Shown here piece by piece: positions 9,080 to 64,000 of a DNA stretch of 64,000 nt. The stretch spans positions 3,096 through 67,095 of the IMG/VR virus record IMGVR_UViG_3300012162_000002, one strand, 5' to 3'. The notes beneath the pieces were generated by a model. That model ran no database searches and was not told the DNA's origin. It saw nothing but the letters and a program-made list of their open reading frames with translations. Numbering within the stretch: position 1 is the stretch's first letter; each line of letters starts with the position of its first letter. This DNA is from a virus. The translations under genes and the position numbers were made by a program.

Positions 9080-10639
9080 TCACCGTTTAGAATTACTATC
9101 ATTATTCTGCGTCTGTTCCCCTGAATCACTTAGTATTTCCCCTTGTGATTCGCTAGTTGGTCTTCCAACATCGGCAGAATTTTGTGTGTGAGAAGATTTA
9201 AGTGGTATCCATCTTTTATCCCATTGAAAAACATCTTTTTCCAAAACTAAAGCCCCCTCAATTCGAGAAGGGGTCATATCTAAAGCAGCCATAAATTTAT
9301 CTTTTACAGGAGCACCATACTGACATGCATTTTGATATTTATTAATGACCTTATCTTTGTTGTATATGGTCATATCTAAAATATAAAAAAGAAATTTGAA
9401 TAATGGTTTATTATATTTGTTGATTTTAATATATCTGTTAATCCATCTCTCAAACTGTCGGTATATTCCATATATAATACCTGAATCATTTTCCAACGAA
9501 TATGTCATGGAAGTACCACTAGCAGAACCATTAAAGGCTTCTTTAGGAACTCCGGACGAATTATAAATATCATCAGTGGCATCGGCTACATTATTTCTAC
9601 TATTCGCAGAATCTTTAAATGAAACAGCTTTACCTTCAGAACCAAGAGTGTGTATGAGTCCAATATCATCAGACATACTTTCTTTATTCATTTCGGCAAA
9701 TATACCCAATGTATCAGGAGTTAATAATGGTTTATCAATAGTAGCTTCATCTATTGGAACTTTAATAATTATTGCTTTATAATTATCAGTTCTGGCAGAC
9801 TGTAGTTTCAACTTTTTATAAGTGTCTAAATCAAAAATATCCCTCACAATTGCTATCAGCATTGGGAAAGGATAAATAAGATGGCTATTTAGTTTTAAAC
9901 ATATCTGCTTATCTGCCGGTGGAGAATACCATCTATCAATTTCTCCTTGTTGAAACTGTAAGTAAGCCTGTTGTATATATATAGGATAGGCATTGATATT
10001 TATCGGATTAATACCTGAAAGATTTATTTTAAAATTATAAACACCATCTTGTATTTGTGATATTTTACAAATACGATAATCTAACTGCTGAATAAAAAAG
10101 TCTGTAGTATTTTCCATTATTACACCGCAATAAACATCCATGTACGGTAGCGTTTTCATAATCCTTGCAAATTCATGCTTCAAAGACATTTTTTCCAACT
10201 GAGACGACAAACTATAATACGCCTTTTTTAGTTTATCAGGACTATAATCTTCTTTGACATCATAAATATCAAGACCCCAATTCAGTACAGCCATATTGCT
10301 AAAATATGTATTCACTTTATTGTAATGAGGTGAAATACGCATCAAATAATCACTTGTGTCTAATAAGATTCTATATCCAGTAGTTGGATGTTCCAATGCT
10401 GCGTTGATAGATTCTAAAGAATGATGTCCACAGTAAAACGTATCTATAGTATTATTCATACATAAATCATGCATCATAAGCCGCTGGAAGGACGACCAGT
10501 TTACCGGTTTATTGTTGTCTATAGAATCATTTAATGATTTTTCGTCTTCATTATATTGCCCCTTTGAATAGATAGTTTTTGTACAAAAATCCTTGCTTTT
10601 TTTATTTTTATATCTATTCTTATTTCGATTATAACTCAA
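9080..10639 (-). CDS. portal protein, putative
   Basis: 519 aa directly after terminase; C-terminal VGRPT motif typical of siphophage portals. Confidence 0.7.
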   Translation of the reverse strand: MSYNRNKNRYKNKKSKDFCTKTIYSKGQYNEDEKSLNDSIDNNKPVNWSSFQRLMMHDLCMNNTIDTFYCGHHSLESINAALEHPTTGYRILLDTSDYLMRISPHYNKVNTYFSNMAVLNWGLDIYDVKEDYSPDKLKKAYYSLSSQLEKMSLKHEFARIMKTLPYMDVYCGVIMENTTDFFIQQLDYRICKISQIQDGVYNFKINLSGINPININAYPIYIQQAYLQFQQGEIDRWYSPPADKQICLKLNSHLIYPFPMLIAIVRDIFDLDTYKKLKLQSARTDNYKAIIIKVPIDEATIDKPLLTPDTLGIFAEMNKESMSDDIGLIHTLGSEGKAVSFKDSANSRNNVADATDDIYNSSGVPKEAFNGSASGTSMTYSLENDSGIIYGIYRQFERWINRYIKINKYNKPLFKFLFYILDMTIYNKDKVINKYQNACQYGAPVKDKFMAALDMTPSRIEGALVLEKDVFQWDKRWIPLKSSHTQNSADVGRPTSESQGEILSDSGEQTQNNDSNSKR

Positions 10640-10657: not shown

Positions 10658-12370
10658 TTAATATAGTTTCGGCTTACGGTTCAATTTTGATAATGCTTGT
10701 GCATAAGATTGAGCGTTGAAATTATTTTTTCTGACATTAGATTGAAATTCAATAATGTAATATATTAGATATGCTAATGCTGAAAATCTATCTTTATCCA
10801 TTTTTTTAACAACCTTTTCAATAGAAAGCCCGTTGGTATCTTTTAATTTTAAGTTCGCAATTTCATCAAATAGGTTATTAGTTTGAATAAATGGAAGCAT
10901 TTTTTCTATTGGATTTTCTCTATCTTTTAAAGAAAATTCACTGTCTTGCTTCTTTATTAATAATCTTAATTTACCACCATCAACAACATCAATAAAATCA
11001 GTTATAATTTTACTTTGACAAGATTGTGCTTTTAGATCAAACAAACAGGATTCGGCATCACTAACCTCTGGTTCATTCGTAGTATTTATTGTATTCCAAC
11101 ATCCTAAATATTCTTTTGTAATTGGATCATAGCTTTCTTTAAGTAATTCATCAATCAACCCCGCACCAAGTCCATTACCATCAGCAACTACCATTTTGGC
11201 ACAAAAGTCTCTTTTTATTTTTTTAACAATACTTGCTTGCGTAGAAAAATTTAAAACATTTGAGATGGTTGTTATATTTGGGACTTCTATAGATGTTATC
11301 CTGTTAGTATCTTTATGTCTTATTACTTGTCCTACTGCAGCAGATGATTGATTATTGTTGGTATTTTGAGATCTTGCAACGTCTACACCAATGTAAAATT
11401 CTTCATCGTAATGATTCATATTTATCATTGGAACGGTTAGTGAACGACAATTCATTAGTTTATTTATATCTACCAATGCTGAATCGGAACTACCGACCCA
11501 TTTTGATTCATAATTTCGAGCAAAAGAAATAGGAGACATTTCTTTTTTCTTTTGTAATATCTGACTTTTATTAGATCCTCTACCATACCAGCATGGAAGC
11601 ATCCAGTTAGAACCAAGTACTATTTCTCCTTTTAAATTAACCATATTTTTAACCATAGTAATACTTCTTTGGAACTCATCTGATCCTCTAAATCCAGATG
11701 TTGTAAAAAAATGTATTTGTTGATTTAATTCTTGTGGATCTGGTATGGCTAATTTACCAATTGTATATCTTGGAACTTCAACAATTGGCTTTAACGAATC
11801 TTGATATATTTCATTATTTAACAATGCGGATTCTTCTATTTTAATTCTTTTTCTTCTTTGTCCTTTTGAAGATTGAGCATTTGCTAAAATATCAATGCGA
11901 GCACCACTTTTAAATTTAACTTCTGCGTCATTTTTAGAAAACCTTGGTTTTTCAAGTAATTCATTTTGAATCAGAGGATAGTATTTTAATATTTCATTTG
12001 TTTTATCTTTTAATAACTCAGCTGCATTTTCTTTTGTTTGAGCAGTAAGTGCTAGTTCAATATCCGGGAAAAGCATAGCAACAACGAACATATCAAGTAC
12101 TTCATCGAATGTTTTTCCATATCCACGGGTAAAAGTTCCATACATACTCATAAATCTTATATCTGAACGAAGAAATATACGCTGGTCTAAATGCAAATTA
12201 ATACCACCGGTCTCTGGCTTTAATAAATCTAAAAACAAATCAGGATAAAACCGCGCCCATGAAATAAATTCGTAATAATTATATAAATTTTTACCAAAAA
12301 TAGAATCGTCCTGTAGTTCAAGTATTCTCTCTTTATTCATTATCCTCACCATCCGGCACATCATAATCAT
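10658..12370 (-). CDS. terL: terminase large subunit
   Basis: Walker A TRGYGKT, Walker B-like IKIEES, FTTSG motif III, nuclease GVDVAR and DGNGLG. Confidence 0.9.
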   Translation of the reverse strand: MIMMCRMVRIMNKERILELQDDSIFGKNLYNYYEFISWARFYPDLFLDLLKPETGGINLHLDQRIFLRSDIRFMSMYGTFTRGYGKTFDEVLDMFVVAMLFPDIELALTAQTKENAAELLKDKTNEILKYYPLIQNELLEKPRFSKNDAEVKFKSGARIDILANAQSSKGQRRKRIKIEESALLNNEIYQDSLKPIVEVPRYTIGKLAIPDPQELNQQIHFFTTSGFRGSDEFQRSITMVKNMVNLKGEIVLGSNWMLPCWYGRGSNKSQILQKKKEMSPISFARNYESKWVGSSDSALVDINKLMNCRSLTVPMINMNHYDEEFYIGVDVARSQNTNNNQSSAAVGQVIRHKDTNRITSIEVPNITTISNVLNFSTQASIVKKIKRDFCAKMVVADGNGLGAGLIDELLKESYDPITKEYLGCWNTINTTNEPEVSDAESCLFDLKAQSCQSKIITDFIDVVDGGKLRLLIKKQDSEFSLKDRENPIEKMLPFIQTNNLFDEIANLKLKDTNGLSIEKVVKKMDKDRFSALAYLIYYIIEFQSNVRKNNFNAQSYAQALSKLNRKPKLY

Positions 12371-40839: not shown

Positions 40840-41022
40840 TTACAATAAAAGTCTTAATTGAAAAGGAGGAATAAAACTATGAACTATCTTGATTTAAAAG
40901 AAAATTGGTATGCTTTATATTTATCAATAGTGAACTACATGACATCTGATGATGCTATAAGAGTGATGATTGGCACTAGAGAGTATAATTTCAATAACCG
41001 CTAATTTGGAGGTGTAAGTAAA

Positions 41023-41229
41023 ATGAAAGATATAATGAAATATATATGGAGGTACTATTTTAGGACGGAATGCTCCGGAGGTATAGCTATAGCTAATTCA
41101 AAAGAAGAAGCTGAAAATAAAATTAAAAAAATGTACTTGGATTACGACCATGACGAGTTGGTGGTCTGGGAAGCTATGCTAGACGATGACTACAAAGAAG
41201 AGTTCCCAGATGTATTGGAAGTTTACTAA
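41023..41229 (+). CDS. hypothetical protein
   Basis: GGAGG RBS. Confidence 0.6.
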   Translation: MKDIMKYIWRYYFRTECSGGIAIANSKEEAENKIKKMYLDYDHDELVVWEAMLDDDYKEEFPDVLEVY

Positions 41230-41253
41230 ATTAAGAAAGGTTAAATAATAATC

Positions 41254-41580
41254 ATGGAAGAAAAAGTTGTATGGGAATATGACTATTATACGCTGCAACA
41301 AGCCCGCAAACTAATCTATCAGGAAATGCGTTATGATCGACTACAAAGGGAATATACAATTAAAAGAAAAGAAAAATTAAGACGTAAACGGAAAATTTAT
41401 TACATAAAACAGAGATTAATTGGATTGATGGTTTGTATGCTGTCAATCCTTTTGTTTTACATAGCAGACGGGACTATAATGTCAGTCTTGTTGTTTACAT
41501 GTGGCTTGTGGATTATAGGCACAAAACAGAAACTATTCATTAACCTATTTAATGATATCAAAGAATCTTTTGAAAGGTAA
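41254..41580 (+). CDS. membrane protein
   Basis: Basic segment followed by two hydrophobic helices. Confidence 0.65.
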   Translation: MEEKVVWEYDYYTLQQARKLIYQEMRYDRLQREYTIKRKEKLRRKRKIYYIKQRLIGLMVCMLSILLFYIADGTIMSVLLFTCGLWIIGTKQKLFINLFNDIKESFER

Positions 41581-41594
41581 GAGGTGATGACGGA

Positions 41595-41786
41595 ATGATA
41601 AAATTCAAAACTGTAGAACCAGATCCAACAAAATTATTTGATTTAATCTTTGGTACAGATGGAGAAATTTATTTGTATCACCGTGGGAAGTTTGTAGCAG
41701 CCTGTGGAAATTTTCTAGAAGTAGAAGAGGAACAACAACGGATTCTGAAAGATGACAAGAAAGAATTAGCAAAGGAGAGTGCTTAA
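41595..41786 (+). CDS. hypothetical protein
   Basis: GAGGTG RBS. Confidence 0.6.
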   Translation: MIKFKTVEPDPTKLFDLIFGTDGEIYLYHRGKFVAACGNFLEVEEEQQRILKDDKKELAKESA

Positions 41787-42203
41787 ATGGGTAAGATAAT
41801 TTTTAAAAATAGTGAACACTTGAAATTCTACGAGAATTTTTTACAAAAGTGCGGAGGTAGAGATGTATACCACAAAGCGTTGATGTATTGTCTTGGGATC
41901 GATGAAAATACGAGAAAAAATATATATAGAATATATGATTTCAAAACAGAGTGTGTAAAACCGGAATGTTTACACGATGGATGGATTACCAGCGGAAGTG
42001 CAAAGATAATCCGCATAGCATTCAATCTTTACTGTAATGGTACTCCAAGTGTATATGAGTATGAAAATGACCAAGAAGAGGCTTTAAAAGAGTGTAAAAG
42101 GTATACTGTGGAGGACTTGTTCTGCTGCGGTTATGCACGGTATTTCTGGGAAGCGGTTAAAATCAGATATCCGGAATATTGTTGCAATAAAACGGAGGAT
42201 TGA
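41787..42203 (+). CDS. DUF6075-like protein
   Basis: IIFKNSEHLKFY...YHKALMYCLGI...WITSGSAKIIRIAFNLY pattern (recalled). Confidence 0.6.
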   Translation: MGKIIFKNSEHLKFYENFLQKCGGRDVYHKALMYCLGIDENTRKNIYRIYDFKTECVKPECLHDGWITSGSAKIIRIAFNLYCNGTPSVYEYENDQEEALKECKRYTVEDLFCCGYARYFWEAVKIRYPEYCCNKTED

Positions 42204-42206
42204 TAT

Positions 42207-42449
42207 ATGGACGTACCAATGTGCAAATGTGAAAGAGATGGTTGTGAGTATAATTTGGATGGGTATTGCACTAACGGAGCAATGCTGTTGTTACTTGAAC
42301 TTGATGATATAGCCTATAGAGAAATTCCTTTTAGTGAAACATGCTCATATTATAGTTATACTCCCGATTTTATTGATGATGATGATGATGACATTGACGA
42401 ATATGTATTTGTAGATGATTATTGTGATTATCTTTGGGATGGTGAATGA
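42207..42449 (+). CDS. Cys/Asp-rich hypothetical protein
   Basis: ORF track. Confidence 0.55.
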   Translation: MDVPMCKCERDGCEYNLDGYCTNGAMLLLLELDDIAYREIPFSETCSYYSYTPDFIDDDDDDIDEYVFVDDYCDYLWDGE

Positions 42450-42531
42450 AGATTAAAATAAGATCAATTTGAAGATTAATACATGTAAATTGGTGGTACG
42501 CCAATGAATCCAGAAAAGGAGGGAAAATTAT

Positions 42532-42837
42532 ATGAAATTTTATGAAGCATTTGAATATGTGAAGAATGAACTTGAAGGTAAAACTTTGACGTTGGGTGAA
42601 ATAGATAAAATTACTATGTCAACAGATCAATTCTATGATGGACTCTCCATTGATATTCTTTACAGATGTAAAGTAAGAAAAAATTTATATTCTTATAATG
42701 GTGAAGAGTATGACAATCAAGTCATAGCTATTGATTTTAGTTTTGTGGAAGATTTAGAAAGAATCAAATTACAGAATGATGAACTAGATGGATTTGAAGG
42801 TGTTATAGTTACCGTTAAAAAGGTTTATTTATTTTAA
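42532..42837 (+). CDS. hypothetical protein
   Basis: GGAGG RBS. Confidence 0.65.
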   Translation: MKFYEAFEYVKNELEGKTLTLGEIDKITMSTDQFYDGLSIDILYRCKVRKNLYSYNGEEYDNQVIAIDFSFVEDLERIKLQNDELDGFEGVIVTVKKVYLF

Positions 42838-42872
42838 TGTAAAAACAAAATATAAAAATGGAGGATTAAGTA

Positions 42873-43199
42873 ATGGGTTATTATACTGATTATACTTTGG
42901 AAACTCACAAATCTAAAATGAATATATCAGATATTTTAGGCAATTTATCTGAAAATGATTTTGGTGGATTAAATTATGCAATAGATGTTTATGGGGAATA
43001 TTATGAATCCGTCAAATGGTACGACCATGAAGATGATATGAAAAAATTATCATTAAAATTTCCAGATGTAATTTTTAAGTTACATGGAGAAGGGGAAAAT
43101 TCAGGAAATTTATGGGATAAATATTTTAAAAATGGAAAAATGCAAACTTGTTATGCAGTAATTACTTTTGATGATTATGATGAAAGTAAATTAGAATAA
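42873..43199 (+). CDS. hypothetical protein
   Basis: GGAGG RBS. Confidence 0.7.
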   Translation: MGYYTDYTLETHKSKMNISDILGNLSENDFGGLNYAIDVYGEYYESVKWYDHEDDMKKLSLKFPDVIFKLHGEGENSGNLWDKYFKNGKMQTCYAVITFDDYDESKLE

Positions 43200-43231
43200 A
43201 TAGAGTTGAAGATTGAAAGGGTGATAATAAA

Positions 43232-43510
43232 ATGAAGAAATGTGCAGATTTTATAACAGTAAAAGGAAAACATTTTCGAATTTGTTACCCATTAGGGTTA
43301 ATGGGTGTGAAAGGAAATGAAATTTATGAACTAGAAAAATATTGTCAATGTCGCTATTGTAAAACCAGAAGATCCTATAATAGAGAACCAGCTAATACTC
43401 TAATTGCATCAACAACGGATATTCTAAAATTAAATGATATTGCCGACTTCGTAAATGATTGGACTTGTGGGAATGAAAGGCAACTGGAAAGATTATATGT
43501 AAAATTTTGA
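43232..43510 (+). CDS. hypothetical protein
   Basis: ORF track. Confidence 0.6.
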   Translation: MKKCADFITVKGKHFRICYPLGLMGVKGNEIYELEKYCQCRYCKTRRSYNREPANTLIASTTDILKLNDIADFVNDWTCGNERQLERLYVKF

Positions 43511-43572
43511 CTTGTGGTAGAAAGAGGAAATATATAAACAATTAAATATGATATTGAAAGGGCTGAAATTAT

Positions 43573-43857
43573 ATGAGAATAACAGAAGAAATGGTATTCC
43601 GTTTTAATAATATGCTTTTATTAACAGAAGGATGCAGTTTTAAACTTCAACTTAATTATGGCGTAGGGAGTAATATGCAGTGTGAAATAGTTCCAAGGTC
43701 TGGAAAATTTTTAGACAGTTGGGTGCTAAATGCATCCAAGGAATTTTATTTTACTCTAGAAAAATTTTTCAAATCAGAAGGAATTGAATTAAGCTACAAT
43801 AATGACGGTAGTATTTTCTGGAGTAAATCAGGATTTACGGATAAAATCAATATTTGA
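43573..43857 (+). CDS. hypothetical protein
   Basis: ORF track. Confidence 0.6.
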   Translation: MRITEEMVFRFNNMLLLTEGCSFKLQLNYGVGSNMQCEIVPRSGKFLDSWVLNASKEFYFTLEKFFKSEGIELSYNNDGSIFWSKSGFTDKINI

Positions 43858-43873
43858 GAGGATGGTTTAAAAT

Positions 43874-44116
43874 ATGATCAGTAGATATCAAATAAAAGAA
43901 ATTATCAAGTCTTGGAGAGATGAAAGTGGAATATGTGATATTTTTACTGATAGAAAAATCATGTATAGACTTAGTTCTAATAATAAGTTATCTATTTATA
44001 CTTCGTGTCCAGGATTTTTAATTGGGAAGGCTGGACATCTATATAATAAGTATGAGGAACTATTGAAGGGTGTTGGAGTAAGTGATGTAGAACTTATTGA
44101 AACACACGTTATATAA
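43874..44116 (+). CDS. stand-alone KH-domain-like protein
   Basis: LSIYTSCPGFLIGKAG resembles the type II KH GxxG loop of ribosomal protein S3. Confidence 0.5.
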   Translation: MISRYQIKEIIKSWRDESGICDIFTDRKIMYRLSSNNKLSIYTSCPGFLIGKAGHLYNKYEELLKGVGVSDVELIETHVI

Positions 44117-44159
44117 ACGATAAAAATAGTATTTGAAAAGATAAAAGGAGGATAAAAGT

Positions 44160-44771
44160 ATGAAGATCAATAAAGAACAAGAACAGGTAATTATTACATT
44201 ATATAATGAAATTATGAAAGAAAGAGGGCAGAATAAACAAATCGCAGTCCAAGACATAGATTTTAAAAAATCAATTCAGGTTGGTGATTATACATGGAGT
44301 GCATTTTCTGGTGATAAAGATGGTAATACGGGCATTTTGTTAGATAAAAAACATACAATTAAGGGCGTTCAATTTGGCGAAGATAATAATTATTCAACTA
44401 GCAACGTTAGAAATGTAGCTAATGATTGCGAGCCATCAAAACAAGCATTAAAAATTTTCGGTAAAGATGCATTTATTCCACTTGAAATTGATTTGCTTAG
44501 TCATGATGGATTAAGGGATTATGGAGTCTGTAGAGGTGATCTATTTGGAATTTTGAATTATGATATGTATCGGAATAATCGTGAAAATATTGATTACAGT
44601 GCAATGCTGCTTGCTACACCAGAATCAACACCTTCCGGCGATGGCCCATCTTATGTTCGGTGTGTTTGCTCCGGCGGCGGCGTGGGCTGCGGCGGTGCTG
44701 GCTGGGATGGCGGGGGTGTCCGTCCGTTTTATATCCTTAAATCTGATATCTTCGTATCTTTGGTAGAGTAG
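44160..44771 (+). CDS. DUF6273/C-lectin-like protein, probable DGR target
   Basis: C-terminal ATPESTPS...VRCV...GVRPFYIL with a GC-rich, NNC-codon-rich variable-region-like end. Confidence 0.6.
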   Translation: MKINKEQEQVIITLYNEIMKERGQNKQIAVQDIDFKKSIQVGDYTWSAFSGDKDGNTGILLDKKHTIKGVQFGEDNNYSTSNVRNVANDCEPSKQALKIFGKDAFIPLEIDLLSHDGLRDYGVCRGDLFGILNYDMYRNNRENIDYSAMLLATPESTPSGDGPSYVRCVCSGGGVGCGGAGWDGGGVRPFYILKSDIFVSLVE

Positions 44772-44846
44772 TGGGAAGCCGATAGCGTAGTCTAGGGTGT
44801 AAACCCTCTAGTAAGCTACCGATAAAATATAATTTTGAAAGGATGA

Positions 44847-45224
44847 ATGGAGGATAAATTTATGAATACTATGAATACATCAAATGAATCAAGGATTAAA
44901 ACAGTCAGAGATTTAAAAGAATTATTGGAACATGTGGGTGTGGATATAATGTCACTAGAGTTTGATTTTAATTCTTTGAAAGAAAAAGGAACTTGTTATG
45001 TTGTGCAATGTATTTGTTATTCTGATGATGATAGCACTTCAGTATTCTGGAAAGAAGAGGATGCTTATAAATCCATGATTGAAGATATGGAAACAGAAAT
45101 AACAAATCTTCAAGACGGTGGTTATGAATTTGTATCATCAGAAAATGACACTAGTGCTGAAGTACATGTGCCTGATTCTGATATATACTATGAATGGGAA
45201 ATCATTGAAACAGATATTCAGTAG
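44847..45224 (+). CDS. hypothetical protein
   Basis: GGAGG RBS. Confidence 0.6.
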   Translation: MEDKFMNTMNTSNESRIKTVRDLKELLEHVGVDIMSLEFDFNSLKEKGTCYVVQCICYSDDDSTSVFWKEEDAYKSMIEDMETEITNLQDGGYEFVSSENDTSAEVHVPDSDIYYEWEIIETDIQ

Positions 45225-45254
45225 ATAAATTCAGCTTTTGAAAGGAAAGGAGAA

Positions 45255-45608
45255 ATGAAAGTTATGAATCTTTTAGATAAGGAAGAAGCTTTGTATAAAC
45301 AAGATATGGAGAATAGAGAGGAATTAATAAAAAAATCATTGTTAATTGGTACTGATTCTCTTAGTAGGGTGGAATTAGATCAAATTGTACAAAGCGGAGT
45401 TATGGGTATTTCAAAGTTATATAAAAGTCAGATAATAAAATACAATGGAAATATGTTAACATCTGAAATTTATAAAGCCGCTGATTTTCATTTTAATGAT
45501 GCTGGGTTTCAGTTTAAATGGAGAAATCATCGAGGAATAATTCAACTAGAATGTCTTACATGGAAAGAAGTATTAAGAAGAATTAAAAGTATAAATAAAA
45601 CTCATTAA
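45255..45608 (+). CDS. hypothetical protein
   Basis: AAGGAG RBS. Confidence 0.6.
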   Translation: MKVMNLLDKEEALYKQDMENREELIKKSLLIGTDSLSRVELDQIVQSGVMGISKLYKSQIIKYNGNMLTSEIYKAADFHFNDAGFQFKWRNHRGIIQLECLTWKEVLRRIKSINKTH

Positions 45609-45767
45609 AAACACTGATTGAAAAGGAGATTGAAAAACATGTTTAGGGGATATGTAAATGGAACTTGTTATTATAGCTATAAAGCTTTTAAGATTGCCAA
45701 GGCAGAATATGAAGAAAAACTAAAAACGTTTCAATGTAAATAGTTCAGCTTTTGAAAGGAGAAATAT

Positions 45768-45977
45768 ATGACTGTTAAAGAAGCCGGAGAAGGTATTGTA
45801 ATAGAAGAAGAAACTACGTATTTAATTGATTTTGTAAATTATGATAGAGAAGATGATCAAACAGATTTTACCGCTACAGGAATGGATGATTTAGAAGAGT
45901 TATACAATAACTTTTGTGTAGAAAATGGGTTTGAAAATAATACAGTGATCTATATTATGATTGCTGAAGATGATTGA
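45768..45977 (+). CDS. hypothetical protein
   Basis: AAGGAG RBS. Confidence 0.6.
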   Translation: MTVKEAGEGIVIEEETTYLIDFVNYDREDDQTDFTATGMDDLEELYNNFCVENGFENNTVIYIMIAEDD

Positions 45978-46244
45978 AAGAGATAAATTCGACATTTGAT
46001 ATGAAACAAAAATTAAGAGTTGATTGGCGAAAACTTTTAATTGTAAATTAGATAGAGACTAAGGAGGGAATTATGTTAATAGATGTAAAATTGTTATCTG
46101 AGTTTAATGTGAATGGAAAAACATATTGCATCGTCAGAATAAAAGGTGGTGCATGCACTTTGGAAAAACATGAATATCTTGAGTTGCTGGAATTATATAC
46201 TCATGATACAATAGAAAAAATAGCTTAAAAGAAAGGAATTTACT

Positions 46245-46439
46245 ATGGGAACCGTTGAAACTGTTATTTGTATTATATTGCTTGTATGTATAGTTAAACT
46301 AATATTTGGTGAAACATCTCAACAAAAGAGGAGAACAATAGAAAGAAATGCTGCTTGCAAAAACATGATAAAAAACGGAGATGGAAAAGATGCCCTGGAA
46401 TACACTAAAAAATATGGTGGAGATTACTACTTGAAATAA
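46245..46439 (+). CDS. small membrane protein
   Basis: N-terminal hydrophobic helix. Confidence 0.55.
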   Translation: MGTVETVICIILLVCIVKLIFGETSQQKRRTIERNAACKNMIKNGDGKDALEYTKKYGGDYYLK

Positions 46440-46449
46440 AGGCGGTGTT

Positions 46450-46668
46450 TTGATGTATATAATCAAATTGAATAAGAATTTTATTATGAGCTGTGGTAGT
46501 ATGAAAGAGTGCCAGCAGCTTATTTTACGCTACAAGAAGAAATTCGGGAAAGATTCCTTTAATGAATTCGATCCGGAATTATATTCAAATGGTGTGTTGA
46601 TAGGATATTTTACTCAAAAAGGTAATTTGTATGTGCCTGTAGATTTAAAAATACGGAAGGTGGGGTGA
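46450..46668 (+). CDS. hypothetical protein
   Basis: ORF track. Confidence 0.55.
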   Translation: MMYIIKLNKNFIMSCGSMKECQQLILRYKKKFGKDSFNEFDPELYSNGVLIGYFTQKGNLYVPVDLKIRKVG

Positions 46669-46672
46669 GAAA

Positions 46673-47650
46673 ATGTGTTATAAAACAGAGAAGCATCAGC
46701 AGTTACGGATAAACTTAGAAGGACTAACAAAGGATTACCCTTTATTCATTAAGGGATTTTTCGCAGAACAGAAATCAGCCAGGAGTAGTTATAATTATTT
46801 TGGGTGTATCAATAATATGTTAACATGGTTAATTGAAAATAATATCGTTGATAAAAAATCTATATCTGAAATAACCGCAGAAGATTTGAACGGCGTTCTC
46901 CCATCTCATGCTACATTGTATTTTTCGCAACTTCAGACAAATGGAAATGAGTTAGATACAATTGGTACTAAGATAAATTATTGCAGTTCATTTTGGACGT
47001 ATCTTAAATGCAATAAATATGTGATTGAAAATATTATATCTTTAATCAACAAAAGCAGATTTAAATCCGAAAAAACAACACATGATGTAAAAATCCCAAG
47101 TGAAGAAGAACTTTCTGAATTTCTGATCAATATACAGTCAGGAAATAGCAAGGGATATGATTGCATCCGGAACTTAACTATAGTAAAATTACTATTGGGC
47201 AGTGGTATACGGTCAGAAGAGTTGATAGGGTTGGATGTGCAAGATCTGTATTTGAATAATGATGCCTACATTATGATTATGGGTAAAGGACGAACAGAGC
47301 AGCAAGAGAAAGTAATGATAACTCCAGAAGCTAAAAAGCAGTTGAAAAAATATTTACTTGTTAGGAGTGAATTTGCAGAAGAAAAAGAGATTGATACTAA
47401 CGCTTTATTTTTATCAAATCGTAGACAGAGGATATCTAAAGGGGCATTAGACAATATTTTCTTGATTAATAGTAATAAAAAAATCACACCTCATATGCTG
47501 CGACATTATGTCGGAACTATGATCTATAGAAATACAAGAGATATTGTCTTAGTACAAAATCAACTAAGACACTCTAGCTTAGAAACGGCTGCCAAGTATT
47601 ATGTACAGGCAGACGAAAAAAAATTAAGAGAAGTGTTGAATACATTGTAA
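46673..47650 (+). CDS. tyrosine recombinase/integrase
   Basis: GIRSEE, GKG, HMLRH, LRHS and AKYY catalytic motifs. Confidence 0.9.
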   Translation: MCYKTEKHQQLRINLEGLTKDYPLFIKGFFAEQKSARSSYNYFGCINNMLTWLIENNIVDKKSISEITAEDLNGVLPSHATLYFSQLQTNGNELDTIGTKINYCSSFWTYLKCNKYVIENIISLINKSRFKSEKTTHDVKIPSEEELSEFLINIQSGNSKGYDCIRNLTIVKLLLGSGIRSEELIGLDVQDLYLNNDAYIMIMGKGRTEQQEKVMITPEAKKQLKKYLLVRSEFAEEKEIDTNALFLSNRRQRISKGALDNIFLINSNKKITPHMLRHYVGTMIYRNTRDIVLVQNQLRHSSLETAAKYYVQADEKKLREVLNTL

Positions 47651-47692
47651 AATAAATAGAATACAGTTTTGAAGAGATAGGAGGAAATTTAG

Positions 47693-48016
47693 ATGGTAAT
47701 AAAAGCGTTGGAATTTAAAAAGGAAGATGGAACTAATATAATTATATATGTTTCTTTATATAACGATTTCTATGGTGCAATAGAATGGAGAATAGACGAT
47801 ATTCAATATAATCCTGTTGGAAAGATAAAATGGCTATGGTTAAATAAAATATTTGATGAATCATCTGAATACCGACGTCTTGAAATTGAAGAACGAGAGC
47901 AATTTAAAATGAATAAATATATAGAATTCGTTGGCAAAGAAAGAGTGATCGAAGCTTTCTTGAGTGCTTGGGAAAAGTTAAAACCTAGTTTACCAGATGT
48001 TTATATTAACTTATAA
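47693..48016 (+). CDS. hypothetical protein
   Basis: GGAGG RBS. Confidence 0.6.
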   Translation: MVIKALEFKKEDGTNIIIYVSLYNDFYGAIEWRIDDIQYNPVGKIKWLWLNKIFDESSEYRRLEIEEREQFKMNKYIEFVGKERVIEAFLSAWEKLKPSLPDVYINL

Positions 48017-62300: not shown

Positions 62301-63020
62301 GTGGTGATTATGGGATTAAAAAAGAAATATCAAGGTTTATGGTTCTCTTATAAGTTTGGAAATAAATTAATGAAAGATAAATATCAAACAGTGGAAGAAT
62401 TTTTAAAAACAGCTTTAATAAAAAATAACTTAAACGCCCCTAAAGGTGGTACTGAAATTTTTAATATTCGTTACAATGGTGATTATGTAAATGCAAATTT
62501 GATAGTAAATACATTAAAAGATTTATATACGAACATTCTAAATAATGCTACATATTCATTAAAAAAATATGTTTATGCAAGAAAAGAAATAAAAAAATAT
62601 GTTTATGTAAGAAAAGAAATTTATTCAATTGATGATGTATATGTAAAAATAAAGGATGTTTTGGATATTGAAAAAAAGTGTAATTATACCATTGTGAACT
62701 TTGATGGCGATTTGATTTATGGAAACAGCCAACGATACCAACTCTTCTTTCACAAAGGAGTGAAATGTGTGTCTTGTGGAATTACAGGGGAATTTTTTGC
62801 TAAAGAAAAAGGAAGAAATGATAATTCATCAAGATACCATTTAAATTTATACGCCATCGATAAAGATGGAAACGAAGTTTTAATGACGAAAGATCATATA
62901 GTACCAAAATCACGAGGAGGTAAAGATTGCTTGGATAATTATCAGCCAATGTGTGCTATATGCAATAGTGATAAAGGAAATAAAATGGAGGATGAAAAAT
63001 TTTGTACAGTGCTTATATAA
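62301..63020 (+). CDS. HNH endonuclease
   Basis: CVSC...MTKDHIVPKSRGGKDCLDNYQPMCAICNSDKG. Confidence 0.85.
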   Translation: MVIMGLKKKYQGLWFSYKFGNKLMKDKYQTVEEFLKTALIKNNLNAPKGGTEIFNIRYNGDYVNANLIVNTLKDLYTNILNNATYSLKKYVYARKEIKKYVYVRKEIYSIDDVYVKIKDVLDIEKKCNYTIVNFDGDLIYGNSQRYQLFFHKGVKCVSCGITGEFFAKEKGRNDNSSRYHLNLYAIDKDGNEVLMTKDHIVPKSRGGKDCLDNYQPMCAICNSDKGNKMEDEKFCTVLI

Positions 63021-64000
63021 CAACTTTAAAAGAGTTAAGAAAACATGAAAACGCAGACAGGTTGCAGTGTTGTGTGGTATTTGGAAACAATGTAATAGTT
63101 GACTTATCATATAAAGAAGGACAAAAAGTCGTATTTTTTCCAGTAGATGGTCAGTTAAGTGAAGAGTTTGCAAATGATAATAATTTGGTAAGAAAAAAAG
63201 ATGAAGATGGAAACAATATTGGTGGTTATCTTAATCCGGATAAAAGAAATATTACAGCCTTGAAGCTAAGAGGAGAAAAATCCGAAGGTCTTGCTCTTCC
63301 TGTGGAAGTTTTAGATAAATATACTGATAGTTCTAAACTAGAAGATGGAGAACAAATTACGGTTCTTAACGGATATGAAATTTGTAAAAAGTATATTCCA
63401 GAAAACAGACAGATTAGTGAAAATAAGAGTAAAAATAAAAGTAAAACAAAGAAAAGTAAGGAAAAGATTACATACCCATTATTTATTGAACATAGTGATA
63501 CAGCACAGCTTGCTTATGCACAAAGAAATTTTAAGTATGGTGATACCTGTTACATAACATTGAAGATGCATGGAACTTCAGCCAGAACAGCAAACACTAT
63601 TCAAGTGATAAAAAAGAAACGGAAATTATTTTTGAAAAAGATATTTAAGTTAAAGGATAAGGAAATTAAAAAATTTACATGTACAAGTGGTACAAGAAGA
63701 ACTATTTTAAATAATTATGTCGGCGGTTATTACGGAAGCAATGAATTCCGTCAAAAATATCATGAATTATTTAAGGATAAGTTGCCAAAGGGCATGGAAG
63801 TATACTATGAAATTGTGGGATGGGATAAACCGGAACACACTATCATGGGGACATGCTCTAATAGTAAGGTAAAAGATAAAGAGTTTGTAAAACAATATGG
63901 TAAGAATACAGTATTTTCTTATGGATGTAAAGCCGGTGAAAATGATTGTTATATCTACCGAATGACCATGATGAATGAGGATGGGTTTATGGTAGAACTC
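63002..64000 (+). CDS. ATP-dependent RNA ligase (Rnl2/DRB0094-like) with N-terminal OB/tRNA-binding-like domain; runs off window end
   Basis: Translated by hand with no stop: KHENADRLQ...KLRGEKSEG N-domain, motif I TLKMHGTS, SGTRR, motif III YYEIVG; missed by the ORF track. Confidence 0.85.
   Translation, partial: MYSAYITTLKELRKHENADRLQCCVVFGNNVIVDLSYKEGQKVVFFPVDGQLSEEFANDNNLVRKKDEDGNNIGGYLNPDKRNITALKLRGEKSEGLALPVEVLDKYTDSSKLEDGEQITVLNGYEICKKYIPENRQISENKSKNKSKTKKSKEKITYPLFIEHSDTAQLAYAQRNFKYGDTCYITLKMHGTSARTANTIQVIKKKRKLFLKKIFKLKDKEIKKFTCTSGTRRTILNNYVGGYYGSNEFRQKYHELFKDKLPKGMEVYYEIVGWDKPEHTIMGTCSNSKVKDKEFVKQYGKNTVFSYGCKAGENDCYIYRMTMMNEDGFMVEL

What the first reader, a model, noticed from the sequence alone, without database searches (positions are those of the whole stretch)
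44160..44810. Orphan diversity-generating-retroelement target with a VR-like 3' end
The last about 45 codons switch abruptly to high GC and are dominated by NNC codons (TCC GGC GAT GGC...TGC TCC GGC GGC GGC GTG GGC TGC GGC GGT GCT GGC). This is the pattern left when AAC template codons undergo adenine mutagenesis. The segment ends in a fixed GVRPF motif typical of C-lectin-fold DGR targets, and an AGGGT-GTAA-ACCCT GNRA hairpin follows at 44794-44807. I found no template repeat or reverse transcriptase in the window. The gene lies among early genes, not tail fibres, so it may be diversified in trans for an intracellular role.
Basis: partly seen in the sequence, partly recalled or inferred. Interest (0 to 1): 0.6.

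Follow-up and report, generated by a model that had tools for sequence, protein, structure and literature searches.

The report
Second target of a phage DGR
The GC-rich tail of this small phage gene really is a hypervariable region rewritten by a diversity-generating retroelement, but it is not an orphan: the template repeat, helper gene and start of the reverse transcriptase lie 21.5 kb downstream in the same phage genome, just past the end of the window.

Summary
Observation confirmed; the "orphan" reading is not.

**Target and template.** The 203-aa ORF (window 44160-44771) ends in an 81-nt variable repeat, VR2 (44648-44728).
- The whole 69.5-kb contig holds a matching AAC-rich template repeat (TR), 21.5 kb downstream and outside the window.
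- The cassette there reads: paralogous target (VR1), Avd, TR, RT start. The contig end cuts the RT after 29 aa.
- VR2 differs from the TR at 22 of 25 adenines and at 0 of 56 other bases.

**Evidence of activity.** An independent metagenome contig is 99.2% identical over 1406 nt. All 11 differences lie in VR2, at TR-adenine positions, which points to diversification in nature.

**Relatives.** Prophages of mouse-gut Lachnospiraceae carry the full target-Avd-TR-RT cassette. Two relatives keep the same remote short target about 20-28 kb upstream.

**Downstream hairpin.** The hairpin (44794-44807) is homologous to one conserved after the cassette-adjacent VRs of most relatives, with covarying stems.

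**Protein.** It is a DUF6273-type C-type-lectin fold.

**Novelty.** Non-adjacent phage DGR targets and DUF6273 targets are both published, so this is a well-supported new member of a known kind. An intracellular role remains speculation.

The parts
44147..44151 (+). Shine-Dalgarno GGAGG, 8 nt before the ATG of the target gene
   Evidence: Read directly.
44160..44771 (+). Remote (non-adjacent) DGR target gene, 203 aa: N-terminal helix (residues 5-25) plus a DUF6273-type C-type-lectin-like domain
   Evidence: ORF. phrog_9958 at E 5e-19. 217 homologues, many carrying PF19789. AF2 model with pLDDT 92. Fold matches: 9qa6 DUF6273 N-terminal domain Z 13.9, Lcl C-terminal domain Z 9.8, TvpA Z 7.2, Mtd Z 5.4.
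44616..44647 (+). 32 nt just upstream of VR2, identical to the same place upstream of VR1 but absent from the TR. Encodes the near-invariant TPESTPSGDGP scaffold motif.
   Evidence: The same sharp onset of identity is seen in two relatives.
44648..44728 (+). Variable repeat VR2, 81 nt, homologous to the TR. The TR and the rest of the cassette lie OUTSIDE the window, on the same strand. In contig coordinates (window coordinate + 3095): adjacent 254-aa target 67942-68706 with VR1 at 68607-68687; Avd-like gene 68810-69178; TR 69205-69285; RT start 69402, cut at the contig end 69489.
   Evidence: 22 of 25 TR adenines changed (21 to G, 1 to T), 0 of 56 other bases changed. All 11 differences from a 99.2%-identical metagenome contig fall here, at TR adenines. 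Cassette anatomy. Avd NF033474 at E 4e-6. RT start 72% identical to the 345-aa RT of L003.
44715..44731 (+). IMH-like 3' end of VR2 (GGTGTCCGTCCGTTT+T). Encodes GVRPF. The TR has the IMH* variant ...CCGTTC followed by unrelated sequence.
44732..44765 (+). AT-rich stretch with repeated ATCT(T) words, conserved at DNA level after VRs of the whole family whether or not it is translated
   Evidence: most relatives have their stop codon early in this stretch, while here it is read through as ...SDIFVSLVE. Also.
44771..44825 (+). Conserved post-VR element shared with VR1 (GTGGGAAGCCGAT...GTAAGCTACCGATAA), containing the hairpin
44794..44807 (+). Hairpin AGGGT-GTAA-ACCCT (5-bp core, 4-nt loop). Homologous to the 7-9-bp hairpins after the adjacent VRs.
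   Evidence: A compensatory T-A to C-G change against VR1 (AGGGC-GCAA-GCCCT). Same distance from the IMH start, about +82 to +84, in most relatives. 8 of 9 stem pairs show changes on both sides, and 0 of 500 shuffles reach the observed pairing. DNA fold -7.2 kcal/mol, z -1.6.

Best explanation
The gene at 44160-44771 is the second, non-adjacent target of a diversity-generating retroelement carried by the same phage. The phage is a roughly 150-kb (pro)phage of the kind found in mouse-gut Lachnospiraceae.

Inferred mechanism, from the established DGR pathway: the RT with Avd copies the TR transcript into cDNA and misincorporates opposite template adenines. The cDNA then replaces the 81-nt variable repeat of either target. 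It is directed by the IMH-like 3' end (GGTGTCCGTCCGTTT), and probably also by the conserved AT-rich stretch and the GC hairpin downstream.

The outcome is a rewriting of about a dozen codons on the ligand-binding face of a small DUF6273-type C-type-lectin-fold protein, while the scaffold stays fixed.

Shown here: the TR/VR relation, the cassette anatomy, the fold, the conserved cis elements, and natural A-site-only variation at VR2.

Inferred: the enzymology, the role of the hairpin, and the ligand. The ligand is most likely a cell-surface structure, with the protein acting as a virion-borne or released binding module.
For: - **TR/VR relation.** BLASTN finds two further copies of the VR region at the contig's 3' end. 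Aligned on the IMH, every TR/VR2 difference (22) and every TR/VR1 difference (20) lies at a TR adenine, with 0 of 56 non-A positions changed in either.
- **Cassette order.** Target, Avd-like gene, TR, RT start. The order is the same, with a complete 345-aa RT (RVT_1 3e-15; LGNQVSQ, YMDD), in the relative read in full (L003), and most of the 21 viral and 11 bacterial-genome loci show the same VR/TR spacing around Avd.
- **Family-wide TR/VR pairs** show A-only changes, 77.5% of them A to G.
- **Natural variation.** Metagenome contig L044 is identical to the window over 1406 nt except for 11 positions, all in VR2 and all at TR adenines. Its ORF is intact.
- **Hairpin and post-VR element** are conserved with covariation, matching the target-recognition hairpin of Guo et al. 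2011 (PMC3240598).
- **Fold.** C-type lectin, including the DGR targets TvpA and Mtd. Homologues carry PF19789.
- **Conserved layout.** Two related genomes have the same arrangement, a short target 20-28 kb upstream of the cassette on the same strand.
Against: - The RT of this contig is seen only as 29 codons. Its completeness and activity are inferred from relatives.
- Avd scores below NCBIfam's curated cut-off (27 against 80 bits) and has no Pfam hit.
- The window's hairpin has only a 5-bp core, against 7-9 bp after the adjacent VRs, and it folds no better than many shuffles (z -1.6). The remote copies in two relatives lack a GC hairpin altogether. So the hairpin may not be needed at remote sites, or homing there may be less efficient.
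- VR2 here is extreme: 88% of adenines changed, 21 of 22 to G, giving a Gly-rich SGGGVGCGGAGWDGGG. This particular allele could be a poorly functional variant.
- Nothing here shows where the protein acts.
Confidence: 0.93

Rival explanations
1. VR2 is a relic. It was a DGR target once, or a duplicated VR module copied from the adjacent target, and is no longer diversified. The A-specific pattern would then be a fossil.
For: The hairpin is weakened (5-bp core). A remote target in relative G002 (L029) has indels and non-A mismatches to its TR, so decayed remote VRs do occur in this family. The Gly-rich allele in the window looks unselected.
Against: There are zero non-A mismatches to the TR in 56 positions, while the flanks shared by the two paralogues downstream are only about 85% identical. 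Two otherwise identical natural genomes differ at 11 positions, all TR adenines in VR2, which points to turnover more recent than any other mutation in 1406 nt. The ORF is intact in both, and all family-invariant residues are present.
Confidence: 0.04
2. A true orphan target served in trans by a DGR of the host or of another element.
For: No TR or RT lies inside the 64-kb window.
Against: A TR matching at every non-A position lies on the same contig, 21.5 kb away, inside a canonical cassette. The same spacing and strand are kept in two relatives.
Confidence: 0.01
3. The GC-rich tail is a compositional or low-complexity feature (a Gly/Cys-rich tail, or a horizontally acquired GC-rich segment) unrelated to retro-mutagenesis.
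For: The GC jump is abrupt and the peptide is Gly-rich.
Against: The TR relation, the family-wide A-only pattern and the natural A-site variation are not expected from composition alone.
Confidence: 0.01

Closest known systems
Phage DGRs with a non-adjacent second target inside the same (pro)phage (Wu et al. 2018, NAR, PMC5758913: 45 of 372 DGRs have non-adjacent targets; in phage-associated DGRs these are nearly all within 50 kb of the RT)
   Same: One TR serves an adjacent and a non-adjacent VR. The remote target lies 21.5 kb from the cassette, within the same phage genome and on the same strand, and the differences are A-to-N only.
   Different: Nothing fundamental. Here the two targets are diverged paralogues (38% aa identity) with different N-terminal parts. 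They share a sharply bounded module that begins 32 nt before the TR-homologous part.
DUF6273 (PF19789) DGR targets of gut phages: large and small targets of the Faecalibacterium prophages Lelie and CP11 (PMC11792537), and the DUF6273 targets in the tentaclin study of human-gut phages, including single-domain nd4_tgt2 and nd12_tgt2 (PMC10743442)
   Same: Small, essentially single-domain DUF6273 / C-type-lectin-like protein flanked by a short helix, with the VR at the C-terminal end of the domain. Two targets per DGR. Host in the gut Bacillota.
   Different: The window protein itself does not reach any Pfam threshold; the family link comes from homologues and from the fold. The hosts here are mouse-gut Lachnospiraceae. 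The cassette and both targets lie in the non-structural arm of a roughly 150-kb genome.
Bordetella phage BPP-1 DGR (mtd-avd-TR-brt), with its IMH and downstream hairpin/cruciform (Guo et al. 2011, PMC3240598)
   Same: Target-Avd-TR-RT order, adenine-specific mutagenesis, IMH at the 3' end of the VR with a variant in the TR, a 4-nt-loop GC hairpin downstream, and a C-type-lectin-fold target with a C-terminal VR.
   Different: The hairpin stem starts about 60 nt after the end of TR homology, against the 4-34 bp reported. The loops are GTAA, GCAA, GTCA or GTAG rather than GRNA. The target is not Mtd-like in sequence (Z 5.4 only) and is not in the tail module. An AT-rich ATCT-repeat stretch lies between the IMH and the hairpin.
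N-terminal DUF6273 domain of Thomasclavelia ramosa IgA peptidase (PDB 9qa6; EMBO J 2025, PMC12402451)
   Same: Best structural match: Z 13.9, 164 residues aligned, rmsd 2.9 A, covering model residues 28-203.
   Different: That domain is part of a sortase-anchored multidomain protease and is not DGR-diversified. Sequence identity is 19%. A shared fold does not transfer function.

Membership tests
Diversity-generating retroelement (target/VR of a DGR) | A TR/VR pair whose differences are (almost) only at TR adenines | tested here: met
   VR2: 22 of 25 A changed, 0 of 56 non-A. VR1: 20 of 25 and 0 of 56.
Diversity-generating retroelement (target/VR of a DGR) | A DGR-clade reverse transcriptase next to the TR | tested here: inconclusive
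   Only 29 N-terminal codons remain before the contig end. They are 72% identical to the start of the 345-aa RT of relative L003, which matches RVT_1 (3e-15) and shows LGNQVSQ and YMDD. RVT_1 finds nothing in the contig itself.
Diversity-generating retroelement (target/VR of a DGR) | Accessory gene (Avd) between target and TR | tested here: met
   A 122-aa ORF in the canonical position. NF033474 DivGenRetAVD at E 4e-6 over profile positions 2-104 of 104, but below the curated cut-off. No Pfam hit. So this is a distant member, supported by position and conservation.
Diversity-generating retroelement (target/VR of a DGR) | IMH at the 3' end of the VR differing from IMH* in the TR, followed by an inverted repeat with a 4-nt loop | tested here: met
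   Both VRs read ...CCGTTTT and share downstream sequence. The TR reads ...CCGTTCT and then diverges. Hairpin at 44794-44807, with covariation across the family. Its distance and loop consensus differ from Guo et al..
Diversity-generating retroelement (target/VR of a DGR) | Evidence of ongoing diversification (variants differing only at A-sites) | tested here: met
   L044 against the window: 11 of 11 differences in 1406 nt fall in VR2 at TR adenines. This compares two assemblies, not read-level data.
C-type-lectin-fold DGR variable proteins | C-type-lectin fold with the variable residues in the C-terminal part of the domain | tested here: met
   AF2 model with pLDDT 92.1 and pTM 0.83. VIA-align: Lcl C-terminal domain Z 9.8, TvpA Z 7.2, Mtd Z 5.4, and dozens of animal C-type-lectin domains at Z 5.5-6.7. 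The VR covers residues 164-189 of 203.
Pfam DUF6273 (PF19789) | Match to the family HMM above the gathering threshold | tested here: not met
   There is no PF19789 hit for the window protein, even at E<=1, or for the adjacent paralogue. However, more than 50 of the 120 listed homologues carry PF19789. The best PDB match is the DUF6273 domain of 9qa6, and the best BFVD matches are DUF6273 proteins. It is therefore best filed as a divergent relative of DUF6273, not a scored member.

The most novel reading that the evidence does not exclude
In this clade of large Lachnospiraceae phages, the DGR and both of its small neck-plus-lectin targets sit in the non-structural, early-like arm, and neither target has a recognisable virion-attachment domain or a signal peptide. 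The evidence does not exclude that these diversified proteins act away from the virion, for example as intracellular or lysis-released binders of a variable host or rival-phage molecule, rather than as receptor-binding proteins. A second unexcluded point: the two VR modules may be homogenised by a TR-independent process (gene conversion). This is suggested by the sharp 100%-identity block that begins 32-45 nt upstream of TR homology in three genomes.
Probability: 0.12. Interest if true: 0.7.

Novelty: new member of a known kind. Interest (0 to 1): 0.33.

Why it matters
It also shows that "orphan" calls must be checked against the whole genome.

Biologically, it adds a clean, naturally varying two-target DGR in phages of mouse-gut Lachnospiraceae, including relatives integrated in cultured strains such as ASF492 and Lachnospiraceae A4. 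Those strains could serve as tractable models for asking what small DUF6273 lectin-fold targets bind. They could also be used to test how a remote VR with a weak hairpin, or none, is recognised.

It does not change what is known about DGRs.

Tried and rejected
- **Pfam and NCBIfam on the window protein:** no significant family. Only phrog_9958, of unknown function.
- **RVT_1 search of the whole contig:** nothing. The RT is cut by the contig end.
- **The search for related loci with the single protein in viral contigs:** no relative. It worked only with the alignment.
- **Exact-pattern scans of viral contigs** for the VR2 flank and for the TR-RT spacer: no match.
- **blastn of 41000-48000 against GenBank phages:** no match.
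- **RNAalifold on the MAFFT alignment of the post-VR region:** no consensus structure, because indels misaligned the loop. This was replaced by a loop-centred alignment and pair counting.
- **Rfam on the cassette region:** no family.
- **The hairpin as an intrinsic terminator:** rejected, since no T-run follows it. The scan instead flags a chance stem inside the IMH.
- **The near-exclusive A-to-G spectrum of VR2 as a sign of a different mutational process:** rejected as weak. The family-wide share of A-to-G is 77.5%, so 21 of 22 has a probability of about 0.03 by my own binomial arithmetic.
- **First submission:** returned because cassette parts outside the window cannot be listed as parts. 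Their contig coordinates are now given in the text of the VR2 part.

Full report
**1. What is in the sequence**

An ATG ORF runs from 44160 to 44771 on the + strand (203 aa), with GGAGG eight bases upstream. GC in 100-nt windows is 0.24-0.39 on both sides and 0.59-0.61 at 44600-44750. The C-terminal peptide reads ...TPESTPSGDGPSYVRCVCSGGGVGCGGAGWDGGGVRPFYILKSDIFVSLVE.

**2. The template is in the same genome, outside the window**

The window is bases 3096-67095 of a 69,489-bp IMG/VR viral contig, which is linear and about 46% complete by CheckV. BLASTN of 44560-44830 against the whole contig finds two more copies:
- contig 68575-68784 (84% identity over 210 nt);
- contig 69204-69292 (72% identity).

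Reading the contig's last 1.6 kb gives a textbook cassette:
- a 254-aa paralogous target (contig 67942-68706) ending in VR1;
- a conserved post-VR element;
- a 122-aa Avd-like ORF (68810-69178);
- an AAC-rich template repeat that reads SYVQYVNSNGNVNYNNANWNDKGVRP;
- a 115-nt spacer;
- an ORF starting at 69402 with MTENSKTDFEVITDFGNLYRAYKKSKSGK, which the contig end cuts after 29 codons.

Anchored on GGTGTCCGTCCGTT, the 81-nt TR (contig 69205-69285) has 25 adenines.
- VR2 (window 44648-44728) differs at 22 of them (21 to G, 1 to T) and at none of the 56 other positions (Fisher p = 6e-17).
- VR1 (contig 68607-68687) differs at 20 adenines and at no other position.

After ...CCGTT the two VRs continue alike (TTTATATCC... 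and TTTGTATCA...), whereas the TR continues CTGGATCGG.... This is the expected IMH against IMH* distinction.

**3. Relatives supply the missing RT and the host**

The Avd-like protein has 21 relatives in IMG/VR, in contigs of up to 216 kb. It has 11 more in bacterial genomes: Lachnospiraceae bacterium A4, Eubacterium plexicaudatum ASF492, Roseburia sp. 1XD42-69, several MGBC Lachnospiraceae and Konateibacter massiliensis. This is therefore a clade of large, at least partly temperate, phages of mostly mouse-gut Lachnospiraceae.

In L003 the order is target (256 aa), Avd, TR, RT (345 aa). That RT matches RVT_1 at 3e-15 and contains LGNQVSQ and YMDD. By established knowledge of DGR RTs, these are the family's motif-4 signature and the catalytic motif. 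The 29 residues left in our contig are 72% identical to its N-terminus. Avd matches NCBIfam's DivGenRetAVD over the full profile at E 4e-6, below the curated cut-off.

Fifteen distinct TR/VR pairs in the family show A-only changes, with 162 of 209 (77.5%) being A to G.

**4. VR2 is being diversified in nature**

A scan of metagenome contigs for the unique flank just upstream of VR2 returned one 4.2-kb contig (L044, Ga0153952_1005859). Over 1406 nt spanning the gene it is 99.2% identical to the window. All 11 mismatches lie inside VR2, each at a TR adenine. The ORF is intact, and the peptide reads SCVQCVSSRGCVRYGGARWNDWGVRP instead of SYVRCVCSGGGVGCGGAGWDGGGVRP. By chance, 11 of 11 mismatches falling in 81 of 1406 nt has a probability of about 2e-14.

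**5. Cis elements**

After the IMH, all family members have an AT-rich stretch with repeated ATCT(T) words. It is conserved at DNA level whether it lies after the stop codon (most relatives) or is translated (here...SDIFVSLVE).

Most then have a hairpin with a 4-nt loop whose first loop base lies about 82-84 nt from the IMH start. The stems differ: AGGGC/GCCCT, GGAATGC/GCATTCC, GCTGC/GCAGT and others.

On a loop-centred alignment of 12 distinct copies:
- 8 of 9 stem pairs have changes on both sides;
- 73% of cells pair, against 59.5% in shuffles (0 of 500 shuffles reach it);
- every slid register pairs worse.

This matches the target-recognition hairpin/cruciform of Guo et al. 2011, described as 7-10-bp GC stems, 4-nt GRNA loops and 4-34 bp from the VR (PMC3240598). 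Here it lies farther away and the loops are GTAA, GCAA, GTCA or GTAG.

The window's copy keeps only the 5-bp core, with a compensatory T-A in place of VR1's C-G, and has lost the outer GGC/GCC pairs.

**6. The protein**

A search of 5.8 billion proteins gives 217 homologues, mostly 195-215 aa. More than 50 of the 120 listed carry PF19789 (DUF6273). The consensus shows fixed scaffold residues and variable positions exactly where the TR has adenines.

An AF2 model on 80 sequences has pLDDT 92. It has an N-terminal helix (residues 5-25) and then a mixed alpha/beta domain. An exhaustive structural comparison ranks:
- the DUF6273 N-terminal domain of T. ramosa IgA peptidase (9qa6): Z 13.9;
- the Legionella Lcl C-terminal domain: Z 9.8;
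- Bd2740 C-terminal domain: Z 7.8;
- a Bacteroides fimbrial protein: Z 7.5;
- the DGR target TvpA: Z 7.2;
- dozens of animal C-type-lectin domains: Z 5.5-6.7;
- Mtd: Z 5.4.

Collectin entries (CL-K1, tetranectin, SP-D) align from residue 6-9 onward, that is, including the helix. This hints at a neck-plus-CRD arrangement (inference only). BFVD matches are viral DUF6273 proteins, some fused to proteins annotated as tail or receptor-binding proteins.

**7. Layout and context**

Structural genes occupy the minus strand up to about 25.6 kb: terminase 10658-12370 and portal 9080-10639. The target sits in the + strand arm among small unknown ORFs, a DUF6075 gene, a tyrosine recombinase (46673-47650) and a ParB-like gene. 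The cassette lies in the same arm, next to an RNA ligase.

Two relatives keep the same layout:
- in IMGVR_UViG_2513237315_000004, a short-form target 56% identical to ours lies 20 kb upstream of Avd on the same strand;
- in 3300045988_162364, it lies about 28 kb away.

The first of these remote VRs matches its TR at all but one non-A position (my reading of the sequences).

**8. Comparison with what is known**

Non-adjacent targets within 50 kb are described as common for phage-associated DGRs (Wu et al. 2018, PMC5758913). DUF6273 targets, including small single-domain ones and two-target cassettes, are described for Faecalibacterium prophages and human-gut phages (PMC11792537, PMC10743442). 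This is a new, well-documented member of that kind.

**9. What remains open**
- Where the protein acts.
- Why the window allele is almost entirely A to G and Gly-rich.
- Whether the weakened hairpin matters.
- Why the two paralogous targets become 100% identical 32-45 nt before TR homology begins, in three genomes. This cannot come from the TR and suggests gene conversion between VR modules.

Noticed in passing
window 44616-44647 vs contig 68575-68606; L045/L009 and L046/L010: In three genomes the remote and adjacent targets are unrelated at DNA level upstream. They then switch sharply to 100% identity 32-45 nt before the TR-homologous part starts. That stretch is not in the TR, so homing cannot explain it. 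Gene conversion between VR modules, or a recent module duplication, would.
   Followed up: partly
L046:6350-6595 and L010:5666-5910 (IMGVR_UViG_3300045988_162364): The remote and adjacent VRs of this relative are identical over about 180 nt, including every A-derived variant. This could be recent conversion between the two VRs or an assembly collapse. Its TR (L010 6382-6469) has GGAGTGTTCGCCCG in place of the usual GGGGTG anchor.
   Followed up: partly
L029:1830-1920 (G002 = IMGVR_UViG_3300006143_000333): A second, long-form target 33 kb from that genome's cassette has indels and several non-A mismatches to its TR. It is a decayed or foreign-derived VR, in contrast to the window's VR2.
   Followed up: partly
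L001:3287-3402 vs L003:6475-6592: The TR-to-RT spacer is about 90% conserved. It holds a hairpin whose stem covaries (CCTGCC...GGCAGG against CCTGA...TCAGG). It may be the counterpart of the spacer structure of BPP-1 DGR RNA that primes cDNA synthesis.
   Followed up: no
window 42209-42471 and 45246-45983 vs L044: The otherwise 99-100% identical metagenome contig L044 has different or much more diverged sequence in these two intervals (89-94% or no match). Small-gene cassettes are being swapped between near-identical phages.
   Followed up: no
window 44121-44140 and 44823-44842: The motifs TAAAA-N6-TTTGAA lie just before the RBS of the target gene and of the next gene. It could be a phage promoter or a junction signal.
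   Followed up: no
L001:98-1396 (contig 66097-67395; window 63002-64000 and beyond): A 432-aa RNA ligase (PF09414 1.4e-8, plus a weak sub-threshold PHA02142 OB-fold match) lies just upstream of the DGR cassette.
   Followed up: no
window 44648-44728: 21 of 22 changed adenines in this VR2 allele became G, and 88% of adenines are changed. The family averages are 77.5% A to G and roughly 60% of adenines changed. The result is an unusually Gly-rich binding face.
   Followed up: partly
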